Positions 2,485 through 35,188 of a stretch of 64,000 bases of DNA are shown piece by piece (position 1 is the first letter of the stretch; the number at the start of each line of letters is the position of its first letter). The notes beneath the pieces were generated by a model. That model worked only from the letters and a program-made list of their open reading frames with translations. It had not been told where the DNA came from and ran no database searches. This stretch comes from Escherichia coli (lineage in GTDB: Bacteria; Pseudomonadota; Gammaproteobacteria; Enterobacterales; Enterobacteriaceae). Made by a program: the position numbers and the translations under genes. The stretch lies in the NCBI RefSeq assembly GCF_003018255.1, contig NZ_CP027440.1. The stretch is one strand, 5' to 3'.

Positions 2485-3933
2485 ATGAAGTTTATCATTA
2501 AATTGTTCCCGGAAATCACCATCAAAAGCCAATCTGTGCGCTTGCGCTTTATAAAAATCCTTACCGGGAACATTCGTAACGTTTTAAAGCACTATGATGA
2601 GACGCTCGCTGTCGTCCGTCACTGGGATAACATCGAAGTTCGCGCAAAAGATGAAAACCAGCGTCTGGCTATTCGCGACGCCCTGACCCGTATTCCGGGT
2701 ATCCACCATATTCTCGAAGTCGAAGACGTGCCGTTTACCGACATGCACGATATTTTCGAGAAAGCGTTGGTTCAATATCGCGATCAGCTGGAAGGCAAAA
2801 CCTTCTGCGTACGCGTGAAGCGCCGCGGCAAACATGATTTTAGCTCGATTGATGTGGAACGTTACGTCGGCGGCGGTTTAAATCAGCATATTGAATCCGC
2901 GCGCGTGAAGCTGACCAATCCGGAAGTGACTGTCCATCTGGAAGTGGAAGACGATCGTCTGCTGCTGATTAAAGGCCGCTACGAAGGTATTGGCGGTTTC
3001 CCGATCGGCACCCAGGAAGATGTGTTGTCGCTCATTTCAGGTGGTTTCGACTCCGGCGTTTCCAGTTATATGTTGATGCGTCGCGGCTGCCGCGTGCATT
3101 ACTGCTTCTTTAACCTCGGCGGCGCGGCGCATGAAATTGGCGTGCGTCAGGTGGCGCATTATCTGTGGAACCGCTTTGGCAGCTCCCACCGCGTACGTTT
3201 TGTCGCTATTAATTTCGAACCGGTCGTCGGGGAAATTCTCGAGAAAATCGACGACGGTCAGATGGGCGTTATCCTCAAACGTATGATGGTGCGTGCCGCG
3301 TCCAAAGTGGCAGAACGTTACGGCGTACAGGCGCTGGTTACCGGTGAAGCGCTCGGCCAGGTGTCCAGCCAGACGCTGACCAACCTACGCCTGATTGATA
3401 ACGTCTCCGATACGCTGATCCTGCGTCCGCTGATCTCTTACGACAAAGAGCACATCATCAACCTGGCTCGCCAGATTGGCACCGAAGACTTTGCCCGCAC
3501 GATGCCGGAATATTGCGGCGTGATTTCCAAAAGCCCGACGGTGAAAGCGGTTAAATCGAAGATTGAAGCGGAAGAAGAGAAGTTCGACTTCAGCATTCTC
3601 GATAAAGTGGTGGAGGAAGCGAATAACGTTGATATCCGCGAAATCGCCCAGCAGACCGAGCAGGAAGTGGTGGAAGTGGAAACCGTCAATGGCTTCGGCC
3701 CGAACGACGTGATCCTCGATATCCGTTCTATCGATGAACAGGAAGATAAGCCACTGAAAGTCGAAGGGATTGATGTGGTTTCTCTGCCGTTCTATAAACT
3801 GAGCACCAAATTTGGCGATCTCGACCAGAGCAAAACCTGGCTGTTGTGGTGTGAGCGCGGGGTGATGAGCCGCCTGCAGGCGCTCTATCTGCGCGAGCAG
3901 GGCTTTAACAATGTGAAGGTGTATCGCCCGTAA
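2485..3933 (+). CDS. thiI: tRNA 4-thiouridine synthase ThiI
   Basis: Track ORF 482 aa; PP-loop SGGFDSGV and C-terminal rhodanese-like region; divergent from xseB. Confidence 0.95.
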
Positions 3934-5451: not shown

Positions 5452-5618
5452 TGTTCCTCCTCACCCGCAACCACTCCGGGTGTTCAATAAGGCTATCCCT
5501 TAATTGTGCATGCTGTTGCGACTATGCACAATTAAGGGATACGTCCTGGTGCGGGACTGTCGGTTATTTAACTTTGCGGGTATTATGCTTCGCATCAAAA
5601 ATGAAGGGAGAGGAAAAG

Positions 5619-19823: not shown

Positions 19824-22178
19824 ATGAATCCTGAGCGTTCTGAACGCATTGAAATCCCCGTATTGCCGCTGCGCGATGTGGTGGTTTATCCGCACATGGT
19901 CATCCCCTTATTTGTCGGGCGGGAAAAATCTATCCGTTGTCTGGAAGCGGCGATGGACCATGATAAAAAAATTATGCTGGTCGCGCAGAAAGAAGCTTCA
20001 ACGGATGAGCCGGGTGTAAACGATCTTTTCACCGTCGGGACCGTGGCCTCTATATTGCAGATGCTGAAACTGCCTGACGGCACCGTCAAAGTGCTGGTCG
20101 AGGGGTTACAGCGCGCGCGTATTTCTGCGCTCTCTGACAATGGCGAACACTTTTCTGCGAAGGCGGAGTATCTGGAGTCGCCGACCATTGATGAGCGGGA
20201 ACAGGAAGTGCTGGTGCGTACTGCAATCAGCCAGTTCGAAGGCTACATCAAGCTGAACAAAAAAATCCCACCAGAAGTGCTGACGTCGCTGAATAGCATC
20301 GACGACCCGGCGCGTCTGGCGGATACCATTGCTGCACATATGCCGCTGAAACTGGCTGACAAACAGTCCGTTCTGGAGATGTCCGACGTTAACGAACGTC
20401 TGGAATATCTGATGGCAATGATGGAATCGGAAATCGATCTGCTGCAGGTTGAGAAACGCATTCGCAACCGCGTTAAAAAGCAGATGGAGAAATCCCAGCG
20501 TGAGTACTATCTGAACGAGCAAATGAAAGCTATTCAGAAAGAACTCGGTGAAATGGACGACGCGCCGGACGAAAACGAAGCCCTGAAGCGCAAAATTGAC
20601 GCGGCGAAAATGCCGAAAGAGGCAAAAGAGAAAGCGGAAGCAGAGTTGCAGAAGCTGAAAATGATGTCTCCGATGTCGGCAGAAGCGACCGTAGTGCGTG
20701 GTTATATCGACTGGATGGTACAGGTGCCGTGGAATGCGCGCAGCAAGGTCAAAAAAGACCTGCGTCAGGCGCAGGAAATCCTTGATACCGACCATTATGG
20801 TCTGGAGCGCGTGAAAGATCGCATCCTTGAGTATCTTGCGGTTCAAAGCCGTGTCAACAAAATCAAGGGACCGATCCTCTGCCTGGTAGGGCCGCCGGGG
20901 GTAGGTAAAACCTCTCTTGGTCAGTCCATTGCCAAAGCCACCGGGCGTAAATATGTCCGTATGGCGCTGGGCGGCGTGCGTGATGAAGCGGAAATCCGTG
21001 GTCACCGCCGTACTTACATCGGTTCTATGCCGGGTAAACTGATCCAGAAAATGGCGAAAGTGGGCGTGAAAAACCCGCTGTTCCTGCTCGATGAGATCGA
21101 CAAAATGTCTTCTGACATGCGTGGCGATCCGGCCTCCGCACTGCTTGAAGTGCTGGATCCAGAGCAGAACGTAGCGTTCAGCGACCACTACCTGGAAGTG
21201 GATTACGACCTTAGCGACGTGATGTTTGTCGCGACGTCGAACTCCATGAACATTCCGGCACCGCTGCTGGATCGTATGGAAGTGATTCGCCTCTCCGGTT
21301 ATACCGAAGATGAAAAACTGAACATCGCCAAACGTCACCTGCTGCCGAAGCAGATTGAACGTAATGCACTGAAAAAAGGTGAGCTGACCGTCGACGATAG
21401 CGCCATTATCGGCATTATTCGTTACTACACCCGTGAGGCGGGCGTGCGTGGTCTGGAGCGTGAAATCTCCAAACTGTGTCGCAAAGCGGTTAAGCAGTTA
21501 CTGCTCGATAAGTCATTAAAACATATCGAAATTAACGGCGATAACCTGCATGACTATCTCGGTGTTCAGCGCTTCGACTATGGTCGCGCGGATAACGAAA
21601 ACCGTGTCGGTCAGGTAACTGGTCTGGCGTGGACGGAAGTGGGCGGTGACTTGCTGACCATTGAAACCGCGTGCGTTCCGGGTAAAGGCAAACTGACCTA
21701 TACCGGATCGCTTGGCGAAGTGATGCAGGAGTCCATTCAGGCGGCGTTAACGGTGGTTCGTGCGCGTGCGGAAAAACTGGGGATCAACCCTGATTTTTAT
21801 GAAAAACGCGACATCCACGTCCACGTACCGGAAGGTGCGACGCCGAAAGATGGTCCGAGTGCCGGTATTGCTATGTGCACCGCGCTGGTTTCTTGCCTGA
21901 CCGGTAACCCGGTTCGTGCTGATGTGGCAATGACCGGTGAGATCACTCTGCGTGGTCAGGTACTGCCTATCGGTGGTTTGAAAGAAAAACTACTGGCAGC
22001 GCATCGCGGCGGGATCAAAACAGTGTTAATTCCGTTCGAAAATAAACGCGATCTGGAAGAGATTCCTGACAACGTAATTGCCGATCTGGATATTCATCCT
22101 GTGAAACGCATTGAGGAAGTTCTGACTCTGGCGCTGCAAAATGAACCGTCTGGCATGCAGGTTGTGACTGCAAAATAG
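19824..22178 (+). CDS. lon: Lon protease
   Basis: Track ORF 19779..22178 trimmed to [16 protein letters not shown] (784 aa); Walker A GPPGVGKT; catalytic Ser in PKDGPSAG. Confidence 0.97.
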
Positions 22179-29806: not shown

Positions 29807-33353
<3,547 letters not shown>

Positions 33354-33396
33354 ATAGCGCAATATTTCATCGTTGGTGCAAAAATGTAACGCACTG

Positions 33397-33413
33397 TGCA
33401 CTGTCATAGTGCG
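33397..33413. promoter_or_regulatory. candidate NtrC-type site (TGCACT-N5-AGTGCG) upstream of glnK
   Basis: Partial match to TGCACC-N5-GGTGCA read about 55-70 nt upstream of the sigma-54 promoter. Confidence 0.4.
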
Positions 33414-33465
33414 TTTTTGTTTTCAATCTTCTTAACTTCCTGCTCTCCTTCTCGTTTTTCATTTC

Positions 33466-33481
33466 TGGCACACCGCTTGCA
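33466..33481 (+). promoter_or_regulatory. sigma-54 promoter of glnK-amtB (TGGCAC-N5-TTGCA)
   Basis: Exact -24 GG / -12 GC consensus read about 55 nt upstream of glnK ATG. Confidence 0.8.
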
Positions 33482-33533
33482 ATACCTTCTTCGTGTAGCA
33501 GAACCATTACCGAATTCTGACCGGAGGGGATCT

Positions 33534-33872
33534 ATGAAGCTGGTGACCGTGATAATCAAACCATTCAAGCTGGAAGACGTTCGTGAAGCGTTATCTTCCA
33601 TTGGTATTCAGGGCCTGACCGTCACCGAAGTGAAAGGTTTCGGGCGTCAGAAAGGGCATGCCGAGCTGTACCGGGGAGCGGAATACAGCGTCAACTTTCT
33701 GCCAAAAGTAAAAATTGATGTGGCGATTGCTGATGACCAACTCGATGAAGTGATCGATATCGTCAGTAAGGCGGCTTACACCGGAAAAATTGGCGACGGC
33801 AAAATCTTTGTCGCTGAATTGCAACGCGTCATTCGTATTCGTACCGGCGAAGCCGACGAAGCGGCGCTGTAA
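33534..33872 (+). CDS. glnK: nitrogen regulatory protein PII-2
   Basis: Track ORF 33396..33872 trimmed to MKLVTVIIKPFKLEDV (112 aa). Confidence 0.95.
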   Translation: MKLVTVIIKPFKLEDVREALSSIGIQGLTVTEVKGFGRQKGHAELYRGAEYSVNFLPKVKIDVAIADDQLDEVIDIVSKAAYTGKIGDGKIFVAELQRVIRIRTGEADEAAL

Positions 33873-33901
33873 TCTCTGGCACACAGCAACAGGAACGAAA
33901 A

Positions 33902-35188
33902 ATGAAGATAGCGACGATAAAAACTGGGCTTGCTTCACTGGCGATGCTGCCGGGACTGGTAATGGCTGCACCTGCGGTGGCCGATAAAGCCGACAATGCG
34001 TTTATGATGATCTGTACTGCGCTGGTGCTGTTTATGACTATTCCGGGGATTGCCCTGTTTTACGGTGGGTTGATTCGCGGCAAAAACGTGCTGTCGATGC
34101 TGACGCAGGTGACGGTGACGTTTGCACTGGTCTGTATTCTCTGGGTGGTTTACGGTTACTCGCTGGCGTTTGGTGAGGGCAACAACTTCTTCGGCAACAT
34201 TAACTGGCTGATGCTGAAAAACATCGAACTGACGGCGGTGATGGGCAGCATTTATCAGTATATCCACGTAGCGTTTCAGGGATCGTTTGCCTGCATTACC
34301 GTAGGCTTGATAGTTGGGGCGCTGGCGGAACGAATCCGCTTCTCAGCTGTGTTGATTTTCGTGGTGGTATGGCTGACGCTCTCCTACATTCCGATTGCGC
34401 ATATGGTGTGGGGCGGTGGTTTGCTGGCTTCTCACGGTGCGCTGGATTTCGCGGGTGGCACGGTGGTGCACATTAACGCCGCAATCGCCGGTCTGGTGGG
34501 CGCATATCTGATAGGCAAACGCGTGGGCTTCGGTAAAGAGGCGTTTAAACCGCACAACCTGCCGATGGTCTTCACCGGGACTGCCATTCTCTATATCGGT
34601 TGGTTTGGCTTTAACGCCGGGTCAGCGGGCACGGCGAATGAAATCGCGGCACTGGCATTTGTGAATACTGTGGTCGCAACGGCGGCGGCAATTCTTGGCT
34701 GGATCTTCGGTGAATGGGCGCTGCGCGGAAAGCCTTCACTGCTGGGAGCGTGTTCTGGTGCGATTGCCGGTCTGGTCGGCGTGACGCCAGCGTGTGGCTA
34801 CATTGGTGTTGGCGGCGCGTTGATTATCGGCGTGGTAGCTGGTCTGGCGGGCTTGTGGGGCGTTACCATGCTCAAACGCTTGCTGCGGGTGGATGATCCC
34901 TGCGATGTCTTCGGTGTGCACGGCGTTTGTGGCATTGTCGGCTGTATCATGACCGGGATTTTTGCCGCCAGCTCGCTGGGCGGCGTGGGCTTCGCTGACG
35001 GTGTGACGATGGGCCATCAGTTGCTGGTACAGCTGGAAAGCATCGCCATTACGATCGTCTGGTCCGGTGTGGTGGCGTTTATTGGCTACAAACTGGCAGA
35101 TCTGACGGTTGGCCTGCGTGTGCCGGAAGAACAGGAGCGAGAAGGGCTGGATGTCAACAGCCATGGCGAGAATGCATATAACGCGTAA
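33902..35188 (+). CDS. amtB: ammonium transporter
   Basis: Track ORF 428 aa with signal peptide; 29 nt after glnK. Confidence 0.96.
   Translation: MKIATIKTGLASLAMLPGLVMAAPAVADKADNAFMMICTALVLFMTIPGIALFYGGLIRGKNVLSMLTQVTVTFALVCILWVVYGYSLAFGEGNNFFGNINWLMLKNIELTAVMGSIYQYIHVAFQGSFACITVGLIVGALAERIRFSAVLIFVVVWLTLSYIPIAHMVWGGGLLASHGALDFAGGTVVHINAAIAGLVGAYLIGKRVGFGKEAFKPHNLPMVFTGTAILYIGWFGFNAGSAGTANEIAALAFVNTVVATAAAILGWIFGEWALRGKPSLLGACSGAIAGLVGVTPACGYIGVGGALIIGVVAGLAGLWGVTMLKRLLRVDDPCDVFGVHGVCGIVGCIMTGIFAASSLGGVGFADGVTMGHQLLVQLESIAITIVWSGVVAFIGYKLADLTVGLRVPEEQEREGLDVNSHGENAYNA

What the first reader, a model, noticed from the sequence alone, without database searches (positions are those of the whole stretch)
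33397..33481. glnK-amtB driven by a consensus sigma-54 promoter with a nearby NtrC-like inverted repeat
TGGCAC-N5-TTGCA (33466-33481) is an exact -24/-12 promoter. About 55-70 nt upstream is TGCACTGTCATAGTGCG, a partial match to the NtrC site. The spacing is shorter than for typical enhancers, so the exact activator site deserves confirmation.
Basis: partly seen in the sequence, partly recalled or inferred. Interest (0 to 1): 0.25.

Follow-up and report, generated by a model that had tools for sequence, protein, structure and literature searches.

The report
E. coli glnK-amtB nitrogen-starvation promoter

Summary
The window is E. coli chromosome (mdlA-mdlB-glnK-amtB-tesB). TGGCAC-N5-TTGCA (33466-33481) is the only exact match in 64 kb (0.06 expected). 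It is the motif under a published sigma-54 ChIP-seq peak assigned to glnK.

TGCACTGTCATAGTGCG (33397-33413) is not above chance as a lone match. However, its core GCAC-N5-T-N-GTGC is invariant upstream of glnK in 20 Enterobacterales while the flanks diverge. A weaker second site lies 20 bp upstream (33377-33393). Published NtrC ChIP-seq, ChIP-exo and gSELEX data place NtrC in this spacer, and glnK mRNA is not readily detected without NtrC.

With the start predicted at 33492, the sites are centred at -87 and -107. This is the shortest spacing among 26 relatives (-87 to -177; one outlier at -337). An apparent 10.8-bp spacing ladder failed a pre-registered test on new taxa.

New here: the site forms an 11-bp RNA hairpin (-14.9 kcal/mol) followed by a T-run, 35-70 nt after the mdlB stop. 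The same arrangement occurs in 16 of 17 taxa labelled Enterobacteriaceae and in none of 10 from other families. This suggests a combined enhancer and mdlAB terminator, but that is inference only.

Verdict: already known and ordinary; interpretation supported.

The parts
31572..33353 (+). mdlB (ABC transporter), the upstream co-directional gene; stop codon TGA at 33351-33353
   Evidence: ORF list. MG1655 annotation mapped onto the window by the glnK offset. RefSeq annotation under the match.
33377..33393 (.). Distal, weaker NtrC-like site TGCAAAAATGTAACGCA (TGCA-N9-CGCA), centred at about -107 and 20 bp from the proximal site centre
   Evidence: Read from the sequence. It is conserved in register in most Enterobacterales as TGCA(C/A)-N7-(A/T/C)(C/G)GC(A/G). 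It has decayed in Salmonella, in Photorhabdus and partly in K. pneumoniae. Binding was not tested.
33397..33413 (.). Proximal NtrC site TGCACTGTCATAGTGCG (9 of 12 consensus positions), centred at 33405, about -87
   Evidence: GCAC, T and GTGCG are invariant in 15 Enterobacterales (A2), and GTGC(G/A) in 5 more. The relatives' versions reach 12/12 matches to TGCACC-N5-GGTGCA (S. enterica, K. pneumoniae). The 47-mer 33370-33416 is identical in 5359 of 5426 complete E. coli genomes.
33388..33423 (+). Intrinsic-terminator-like element for mdlAB: an 11-bp stem (33388-33398 pairing with 33405-33415), a 6-nt loop, then the T-run 33414-33423 (TTTTTGTTTT). The stem arms are the right halves of the two NtrC sites.
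   Evidence: Terminator scan. RNA fold gives -14.9 kcal/mol, z = -3.7. In 9 Enterobacteriaceae, 92% of cells are paired and there is one compensatory pair, C-G 5 versus U-A 4. Hairpin plus T-run overlaps the proximal site in 16 of 17 taxa labelled Enterobacteriaceae and in 0 of 10 from other families. No experimental 3' end was found. Function is inferred.
33424..33465 (+). C/T-rich, T-tract-rich spacer between enhancer and promoter (the looping segment). It is much shorter than in relatives.
   Evidence: Sequence. Comparison of spacer lengths. Polymorphic within E. coli.
33466..33481 (+). Sigma-54 promoter glnKp: TGGCAC-N5-TTGCA (-24 GG at 33467-68, -12 GC at 33479-80)
   Evidence: Unique exact match, 0.06 expected. 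Conserved as TGGCA(C/T)-N5-TTGC(A/T) about 58-104 nt before the glnK ATG in 26 Enterobacterales; Plesiomonas has GTGC at -12. The same motif lies under the sigma-54 ChIP-seq peak OS03 (PMC4591121).
33485..33491 (+). CCTTCTT, a CT-rich heptamer centred at -4. It is reported to act as an anti-Shine-Dalgarno 'insulator' in read-through transcripts.
   Evidence: Sequence. Levy et al., bioRxiv 10.1101/086108: mutating the 7-nt CT-rich region centred at -4 of glnKp gave the largest increase in reporter expression. The position agrees with a start at 33492.
33492..33492 (+). Predicted transcription start (+/-1 nt), 42 nt before the ATG
   Evidence: Inferred from C(-12) at 33480. It agrees with the distance of 42 listed for glnK in the sigma-54 ChIP-seq table. 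It was not mapped here.
33523..33529 (+). Shine-Dalgarno sequence GGAGGGG of glnK
   Evidence: Sequence. Conserved in relatives.
33534..33872 (+). glnK (PII-2 signal protein, 112 aa)
   Evidence: exact match to GLNK_ECOLI.
33902..35188 (+). amtB (ammonium channel, 428 aa). It follows glnK after a 29-nt gap with no terminator-like site between them.

Best explanation
This is glnKp, the sigma-54-dependent, NtrC-activated promoter of the E. coli glnK-amtB operon.

How it works (established knowledge of the Ntr system):
1. RNA polymerase with sigma-54 sits on TGGCAC-N5-TTGCA (33466-33481) as a closed complex that cannot start by itself.
2. Under nitrogen limitation, NtrB phosphorylates NtrC.
3. 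NtrC~P dimers occupy a tandem enhancer: the proximal site 33397-33413 (centre about -87) and the weaker distal site 33377-33393 (centre about -107). The centres are 20 bp apart, so both lie on one face of the helix.
4. The dimers assemble into an oligomeric ATPase, reach the polymerase by looping the short T-rich spacer, and drive open-complex formation.
5. Transcription then starts near 33492 and yields glnK-amtB mRNA.
6. The enhancer is one moderate and one poor site, which fits the reported later activation of glnK than glnA.

Additional inference from this work: in Enterobacteriaceae the same DNA, read as mdlAB mRNA, folds into a hairpin (33388-33415) followed by a U-run. It probably terminates mdlAB transcription inside the enhancer. 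That would shield the poised sigma-54 promoter and glnK-amtB from read-through, alongside the published CT-rich anti-SD insulator at -4.

What is shown and what is inferred:
- Shown by sequence, comparison or literature: the promoter motif, sigma-54 occupancy, NtrC occupancy of the spacer, NtrC dependence, and conservation of the site.
- Inferred: the exact bases NtrC contacts, the start site, and terminator function.
For: - Identity of the locus.
- Promoter: a unique exact match, conserved in relatives, and the same 17-mer under the sigma-54 ChIP-seq peak for glnK (PMC4591121).
- NtrC in vivo and in vitro:
  - ChIP-seq peak 1 is glnK-amtB at 39.7-fold, and glnK mRNA is not readily detected in a glnG deletion and is restored by complementation (PMC4066584).
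  - gSELEX finds NtrC and RpoN holoenzyme peaks in the mdlB>glnK spacer (PMC8743547).
  - NtrC-specific activity at the glnK promoter (glnK transcript per NtrC molecule) is 400-fold higher on ammonium starvation (PMC3870243).
  - glnK is in the ChIP-exo/RNA-seq NtrC regulon (PMC9853098).
- Site assignment:
  - GCAC-N5-T-N-GTGC(G/A) is the only invariant block of the spacer in 20 Enterobacterales.
  - Relatives carry better versions of the site, up to 12/12 to the consensus TGCACCAnnnTGGTGCA quoted.
  - The site keeps its base identity in taxa that lack the T-run.
  - No other NtrC-like match (at least 8/12) lies between it and the promoter.
  - The site is almost invariant within E. coli.
- Terminator.
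- No sigma-70-like promoter lies upstream of glnK, and no Rfam family matches there.
Against: - The 17-mer alone is at chance level in the window.
- The published NtrC ChIP-seq interval (471741-471821 in old K-12 coordinates) maps to window 33453-33533. That is 40-120 bp downstream of the sites and over the sigma-54 promoter. This is compatible with ChIP resolution and looping but does not pinpoint the site.
- I could not read the primary glnK enhancer paper (Atkinson et al. 2002, PMC135341). Agreement with any published site mapping is therefore unverified.
- The start site was not mapped here.
- For the terminator, no mdlB or glnK entry appears in the two Term-seq supplements I could search.
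- The hairpin partly follows automatically from two adjacent dyad sites.
- K-12 MG1655 has a weaker U-run, TTTTCATTTT.
Confidence: 0.9

Rival explanations
1. The inverted repeat is an NtrC enhancer only. The hairpin and T-run are by-products: two adjacent dyad sites are self-complementary by nature, and T-tracts may serve DNA bending or spacing. On this view mdlAB transcription ends by another route, for example Rho.
For: - Half-site complementarity alone gives a weak hairpin in the non-Enterobacteriaceae taxa, -6 to -10 kcal/mol.
- No 3' end for mdlB appears in the searchable Term-seq supplements.
- Only one covarying pair was seen, and it probably reflects a single event.
- Yersinia has an A-tract at the position of the T-run, which hints at a bending role.
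Against: - A T-run (5-8 T in 8 nt) directly abuts the stem in 16 of 17 taxa labelled Enterobacteriaceae and in 0 of 10 others.
- The stem extends beyond the half-sites (AA...UU, CACU/AGUG) and reaches -14.9 kcal/mol, z = -3.7.
- The E. coli departure from the NtrC consensus (TAGTGCG instead of TGGTGCG) is matched by a complementary T in the left arm.
- Taxa without the overlap often have a separate hairpin plus T-run nearby: Leminorella and Photorhabdus. K. pneumoniae, Tenebrionibacter and Enterobacter Bisph1 carry extra ones.
Confidence: 0.4
2. The inverted repeat is only the mdlB intrinsic terminator, and NtrC activates glnKp from some other sequence.
For: - The repeat has terminator anatomy.
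- The 17-mer alone is a chance-level match.
- The NtrC ChIP-seq interval is offset towards the promoter.
Against: - The bases of the repeat are conserved, not merely its pairing, across families that lack the T-run.
- Relatives have perfect NtrC consensus sites at this position.
- No other NtrC-like site exists in the 180-bp spacer.
- NtrC binds this spacer in vitro in gSELEX.
Confidence: 0.04
3. The enhancer-promoter distance is under a strict face-of-helix constraint, so evolution changes it only in whole helical turns. Escherichia would then be the lowest rung of a 10.8-bp ladder.
For: - In the first 20 taxa the spacings were 87, 97, 108, 117-118, 129-131 and 140-142.
- These fit 86.4 + 10.84k with residuals of at most 1.24 bp; P is about 0.005 against uniform spacing.
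- The principle has been published for LuxO/qrr enhancers (PMC4740811).
Against: - The test was pre-registered and run on new taxa.
- Only 3 of 6 usable taxa fell within +/-1.5 bp (binomial P = 0.21). Erwinia was at -113, Tenebrionibacter at -122 and Leminorella at -177.
- With all 9 spacing classes the best-period R is 0.58, P = 0.20.
- Enterobacteriaceae alone give P = 0.044, a post hoc figure.
Confidence: 0.3

Closest known systems
E. coli glnKp (glnK-amtB promoter; van Heeswijk et al. 1996 and Atkinson et al. 2002, cited from memory and from reference lists)
   Same: It is the same locus. The sequence is 100% identical to E. coli CFSAN061763, and the NtrC sites and -24/-12 core are identical to K-12 MG1655. 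The sigma-54 motif matches the published ChIP-seq motif.
   Different: Nothing essential differs. The window strain has TTTTTGTTTT where MG1655 has TTTTCATTTT after the proximal site, plus two other single-base differences in the spacer.
E. coli glnAp2 enhancer-promoter (NtrC sites centred at -140 and -108)
   Same: A sigma-54 -24/-12 promoter activated by tandem NtrC~P sites through DNA looping, under the same regulator and signal.
   Different: The glnK sites are closer to the promoter (-107/-87 against -140/-108) and closer to each other (20 bp against 32 bp). They are poorer matches to the consensus (7/12 and 9/12). No overlapping sigma-70 promoter or governor sites were seen. The site overlaps a terminator-like hairpin.
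Intrinsic (Rho-independent) terminators
   Same: A stem-loop with 5 G-C pairs followed by a U-run, preceded by an A-tract, 35-70 nt after the stop codon of a co-directional gene.
   Different: Its stem is made of transcription-factor half-sites and sits inside the enhancer of the next operon. Termination has not been demonstrated.
CT-rich anti-Shine-Dalgarno insulation in sigma-54 promoters (Levy et al., bioRxiv 10.1101/086108)
   Same: It is described on this very promoter, and CCTTCTT at -4 is present here (33485-33491). Its proposed purpose is protection of glnK from read-through expression.
   Different: That mechanism acts on translation of read-through RNA. The terminator-like hairpin proposed here would act earlier, on transcription.

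Membership tests
Sigma-54 (RpoN) dependent promoter | GG at -24 and GC at -12 in the TGGCAC-N5-TTGCA arrangement, with fixed spacing | tested here: met
   Exact match at 33466-33481, unique in the window with 0.06 expected. Conserved upstream of glnK in relatives.
Sigma-54 (RpoN) dependent promoter | Occupied by sigma-54 holoenzyme | not testable with these tools
   Literature only. The ChIP-seq peak OS03 carries the motif CTGGCACACCGCTTGCA for glnK (PMC4591121). gSELEX gives an RpoN holoenzyme peak at 61% (PMC8743547).
Sigma-54 (RpoN) dependent promoter | Transcription strictly dependent on an enhancer-binding ATPase, with no competent sigma-70 promoter | tested here: inconclusive
   No sigma-70-like site was found between mdlB and glnK. 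In the literature, glnK mRNA is not readily detected in a glnG deletion. Transcription itself was not tested here.
NtrC (NRI) enhancer / upstream activating sequence | A 17-bp dyad resembling TGCACCAnnnTGGTGCA | tested here: met
   The proximal site matches 9/12 and the distal 7/12. The match alone is at chance level, but the dyad core is invariant in 20 Enterobacterales and reaches 12/12 in S. enterica and K. pneumoniae.
NtrC (NRI) enhancer / upstream activating sequence | Two or more sites that allow oligomerisation, on the same helical face | tested here: met
   The centres are 20 bp apart in E. coli, Citrobacter, Enterobacter, Yersinia, Rahnella, Acerihabitans and Pantoea. The distal site has decayed in Salmonella and Photorhabdus.
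NtrC (NRI) enhancer / upstream activating sequence | Located upstream of, and separable from, the sigma-54 promoter (tens to hundreds of bp) | tested here: met
   Centres at -87 and -107 in the window. In 25 of the 26 relatives the proximal site is at -87 to -177, and at -337 in Plesiomonas.
NtrC (NRI) enhancer / upstream activating sequence | NtrC~P protects these bases, and mutating them abolishes activation | not testable with these tools
   ChIP-seq, ChIP-exo and gSELEX place NtrC in the spacer at about 100-bp resolution. The primary glnK enhancer paper was not available.
Intrinsic transcription terminator | A G+C-containing stem-loop immediately followed by a U-tract on the transcribed strand | tested here: met
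   11 pairs (5 G-C), a 6-nt loop and the tail TTTGTTTTCA. -14.9 kcal/mol, z = -3.7.
Intrinsic transcription terminator | Placed at the 3' end of a transcription unit and conserved as a structure | tested here: met
   It lies 35-70 nt after the mdlB stop. mdlB-glnK synteny holds in all Enterobacterales loci tested by tblastn except Orbaceae. Pairing is 92% with one compensatory pair. It is present in 16 of 17 taxa labelled Enterobacteriaceae.
Intrinsic transcription terminator | RNA 3' ends map to the U-tract | tested here: inconclusive
   No mdlB or glnK entries appear in the two searchable Term-seq supplements. Other datasets are not held.

The most novel reading that the evidence does not exclude
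In Enterobacteriaceae the glnK enhancer may be a two-in-one element. As DNA its half-sites bind NtrC~P. As mdlAB mRNA the same half-sites pair into the stem of an intrinsic terminator that stops upstream transcription inside the enhancer. The two functions would then constrain each other: the E. coli deviation from the NtrC consensus is matched by a complementary change in the other arm. The merger would have accompanied progressive shortening of the spacer, to a minimum of -87 in Escherichia.
Probability: 0.45. Interest if true: 0.3.

Novelty: already known. Interest (0 to 1): 0.13.

Why it matters
The finding itself is a textbook promoter, so it mainly shows that the first-stage reader can recognise sigma-54/NtrC architecture from raw sequence.

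The side observations could interest people who study bacterial enhancers or use glnKp as a synthetic-biology part. First, the natural UAS fragment carries a probable terminator. Second, Escherichia has the most compact enhancer-promoter geometry in its order. Third, the tempting 'whole helical turns only' rule for spacing did not survive an independent test.

Tried and rejected
1. Helical-phase ladder. The first 20 taxa gave a striking 10.84-bp ladder, P about 0.005. I wrote the prediction down and fetched 7 further Enterobacterales. Only 3 of 6 usable taxa fell on the ladder, P = 0.21, and the pooled P was 0.20. I report it as unconfirmed.

2. Experimental 3' ends for mdlB:
   - The supplements of PMC7815308 and PMC12207403 have no mdlB or glnK entry.
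   - PMC6061677, PMC4161252 and PMC8848933 have no supplements held.

3. Primary and review literature on the glnK enhancer:
   - PMC135341, PMC3973380 and PMC18977 are not held.
   - No held paper prints the 15-mer core of the site, GCACTGTCATAGTGC.
   - The ChIP-exo supplement of PMC9853098 is not held.

4. Rfam search of 33200-34000 gave nothing at E <= 1, so there is no known leader RNA.

5. A sigma-70 promoter for glnK: none was found.

6. Treating the NtrC 17-mer as significant by pattern match alone: rejected, since it is at chance level.

7. Other NtrC-like hits upstream (-139, -192 and -289 relative to the start) lie in or at the end of the mdlB coding sequence. They are not conserved as sites.

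Full report
**What is there.** The window is Escherichia coli chromosome. The 301 bases around the finding are 100% identical to strain CFSAN061763 and match 5423 of 5426 complete E. coli genomes. The annotation under the match is mdlB and glnK. The MG1655 annotation gives the order mdlA-mdlB-glnK-amtB, then tesB on the other strand.

- In window coordinates mdlB ends at 33353.
- glnK is 33534-33872.
- amtB is 33902-35188.
- The mdlB-glnK spacer is 180 bp.

- TGGCACACCGCTTGCA at 33466-33481 is the only exact TGGCAC-N5-TTGCA in 64 kb on either strand, with 0.06 expected.
- TGCACTGTCATAGTGCG at 33397-33413 differs from TGCACC-N5-GGTGCA at three positions. At that stringency the window has 28 matches against 36 expected. 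The core GCAC-N7-GTGC occurs twice against 1.97 expected.

The promoter is therefore significant by itself. The activator site is not, and needs other support.

**Comparative evidence for the activator site.** I collected 26 glnK loci from other Enterobacterales, by three routes:

- A protein-pattern scan of one genome per species gave Escherichia albertii, Citrobacter, Enterobacter, Superficieibacter, Yersinia, Rahnella, Acerihabitans and Photorhabdus, among others.
- Exact-protein look-ups added K. pneumoniae, S. enterica, S. bongori, C. koseri and E. kobei.
- Later look-ups added Pantoea, Erwinia, Cedecea, Leminorella, Plesiomonas, strain BIT-l23 and Tenebrionibacter.

mdlB-glnK-amtB synteny holds in every Enterobacterales locus tested by tblastn except Orbaceae. 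Plesiomonas has a different upstream gene.

Every locus has TGGCA(C/T)-N5-TTGC(A/T) about 58-104 nt before the ATG; Plesiomonas has GTGC at -12.

Across 15 taxa the only invariant block is GCAC-N5-T-N-GTGCG, while the flanks are scrambled. The five extra Enterobacteriaceae keep GCAC...GTGC(G/A). S. enterica and K. pneumoniae carry the perfect consensus TGCACC-N5-GGTGCA. Within E. coli the 47-mer covering the enhancer is identical in 5359 of 5426 genomes.

A second, weaker dyad lies exactly 20 bp upstream, centre to centre. In the window it is TGCAAAAATGTAACGCA at 33377-33393. It is conserved in register in most taxa but has decayed in Salmonella and Photorhabdus.

No other NtrC-like sequence lies between these sites and the promoter.

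**Published evidence.**

- Sigma-54 ChIP-seq lists CTGGCACACCGCTTGCA, + strand, for glnK, with a distance of 42 (PMC4591121). This is the window's motif, and 42 nt is also the distance I compute from the predicted start (33492) to the ATG.
- NtrC ChIP-seq peak 1 in nitrogen-starved cells is glnK-amtB, at 39.7-fold. glnK mRNA is not readily detected in a glnG deletion and returns on complementation (PMC4066584).
- gSELEX finds NtrC, RpoN holoenzyme and the two together in the mdlB>glnK spacer. The paper quotes the NtrC consensus TGCACCAnnnTGGTGCA (PMC8743547).
- glnKp is described as depending exclusively on NtrC activation, with NtrC-specific activity at the promoter 400-fold higher on ammonium starvation (PMC3870243).
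- glnK is in the ChIP-exo/RNA-seq NtrC regulon (PMC9853098).

Two caveats apply. First, the ChIP-seq interval maps to window 33453-33533, using the unique sigma-54 motif as the anchor. That is over the promoter rather than the dyads, so it supports the region but not the exact bases. Second, I could not read the primary glnK enhancer paper. From memory, van Heeswijk et al. 1996 and Atkinson et al. 2002 describe this promoter and a weaker enhancer than that of glnAp2.

**Mechanism.** This follows established knowledge of the Ntr system, applied to this anatomy.

1. Sigma-54 holoenzyme forms a closed complex on 33466-33481.
2. Nitrogen limitation leads, through GlnD, PII and NtrB, to NtrC~P.
3. 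NtrC~P dimers bind the tandem dyads at about -87 and -107 and oligomerise.
4. The oligomer loops the short T-rich spacer to reach the polymerase, and ATP hydrolysis opens the promoter.
5. Transcription starts near 33492.
6. One moderate and one poor site fit the need for high NtrC~P, and so the expression of glnK-amtB later than glnA (text).
7. The CT-rich heptamer CCTTCTT at 33485-33491 is centred at -4. This is the position where Levy et al. found the anti-Shine-Dalgarno 'insulator' of glnKp. It independently supports the predicted start.

- With the start defined as C(-12)+12, the proximal site is centred at -87 in E. coli and E. albertii.
- It is at -97 in three Citrobacter and -108 in E. 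kobei.
- It is at -117 or -118 in Salmonella and Superficieibacter.
- It is at -129 to -131 in Klebsiella, Cedecea, Photorhabdus and BIT-l23.
- It is at -140 to -142 in three Enterobacter, Yersinia, Rahnella, Acerihabitans and Pantoea.

Escherichia therefore has the most compact version, and -141 is the most widespread spacing and possibly the ancestral one.

The first 20 taxa fell on a ladder of 86.4 + 10.84k with residuals of at most 1.24 bp, P about 0.005. This recalls the published tolerance of sigma-54 enhancers to whole-turn indels (PMC4740811). I recorded the prediction and tested it on new taxa. It failed: Erwinia was at -113, Tenebrionibacter at -122 and Leminorella at -177. Only 3 of 6 fell within tolerance (P = 0.21), and the pooled P was 0.20. 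The ladder is at best a tendency within Enterobacteriaceae (post hoc P = 0.044).

**A second reading of the inverted repeat.** The terminator scan flags 33388-33415 plus the tail TTTGTTTTCA.

- As RNA it forms an 11-bp stem with a 6-nt loop at -14.9 kcal/mol (z = -3.7). It is preceded by an A-tract and followed by UUUUUGUUUU.
- The stem arms are the right halves of the distal and proximal NtrC sites.
- In nine Enterobacteriaceae 92% of cells pair. One pair covaries (C-G in five, U-A in four): where E. coli and Citrobacter have TAGTGCG instead of TGGTGCG, the opposite arm has the complementary T.
- In Salmonella and K. pneumoniae, where the distal site has decayed, the proximal dyad itself forms the stem.

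Applying the tool's own rules to all taxa, a hairpin plus T-run built on the proximal site is present in 16 of 17 taxa labelled Enterobacteriaceae. It is present in none of the 10 from other families. The exception, BIT-l23, is 'unclassified Enterobacteriaceae' and by eye its locus resembles that of Erwinia sp. CPCC 100877.

Several taxa without the overlap have a separate hairpin plus T-run nearby. Leminorella has one just upstream of its NtrC site, and Photorhabdus has one just downstream. K. pneumoniae, Tenebrionibacter and one Enterobacter have an extra one between enhancer and promoter.

I infer that stopping upstream transcription before glnKp is a recurrent need, and that in Enterobacteriaceae the terminator and the enhancer share the same bases. 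This is inference only:

- I found no 3'-end data for mdlB.
- Part of the hairpin follows automatically from adjacent dyads.
- MG1655 has a weaker U-run.

**Comparison with known systems and novelty.** The element is a member of the sigma-54 promoter class and of the NtrC enhancer class. It is the already described glnKp of E. coli.

Compared with glnAp2 (sites at -140 and -108) it is closer to the promoter, more tightly spaced and weaker in consensus match. The possible enhancer/terminator overlap and the lineage-specific compaction are minor additions that I did not find stated in the literature available to me. They do not change the classification.

**Verdict.** The finding is already known and of low interest.

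Noticed in passing
window 33388-33423: The NtrC dyads double as an 11-bp hairpin plus T-run directly after mdlB, a probable intrinsic terminator inside the glnK enhancer. It is seen in 16 of 17 taxa labelled Enterobacteriaceae and in none of 10 other Enterobacterales.
   Followed up: yes
window 33414-33423 vs L001 (MG1655) 5479-5488: The T-run after the proximal NtrC site is polymorphic in E. coli. The window has TTTTTGTTTT, while MG1655 and strain EC07 have TTTTCATTTT. The NtrC sites and the -24/-12 core are unchanged. Other polymorphisms lie at about -38 and -7.
   Followed up: partly
L086 (E. coli NZ_OZ040756.1) 2775-3472: [quoted passage not shown] This should uncouple glnK-amtB from glnKp.
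   Followed up: partly
L004, L005, L009-L012, L081, L085, L087 (about 62 bp upstream of the proximal NtrC site): Relatives with long spacers have a third conserved element, TGCACC-N5-xCAGGC(G/A), sitting on or next to the mdlB stop codon. It is partly a hairpin with the sequence around the stop. It is absent from E. coli. It could be a third NtrC site or a structural element.
   Followed up: no
L081 (K. pneumoniae) and L093 (Tenebrionibacter), -66 to -35 relative to the predicted start: An additional strong G+C-rich hairpin followed by a T-run lies immediately upstream of the -24 element (-14.4 and -25.7 kcal/mol). It looks like an inserted terminator between enhancer and promoter.
   Followed up: partly
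L016, L017, L019, L020, L029-L042 (Pseudomonas/Stutzerimonas), about 2400-2500: The roughly 85 nt before glnK are almost invariant across Pseudomonas. They read as a sigma-70-type promoter, TTACAA-N16-TAGACT, plus a conserved 5' UTR. A sigma-54-like CTGGCA-N4-TTCTGCTT lies about 200 nt upstream of the ATG, with NtrC-like dyads downstream of it. There is no Rfam match and no covariation signal.
   Followed up: partly
window 33873-33901: The glnK-amtB intergenic spacer contains CTGGCACACAGCAACAGG. This is a -24-like TGGCAC without a -12 TTGC at the right distance, so it is not a second sigma-54 promoter.
   Followed up: no
window 20080-20094: This is the only other GCAC-N7-GTGC in the window (GCACCGTCAAAGTGC). 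Two matches equal the chance expectation, and I did not examine its context.
   Followed up: no
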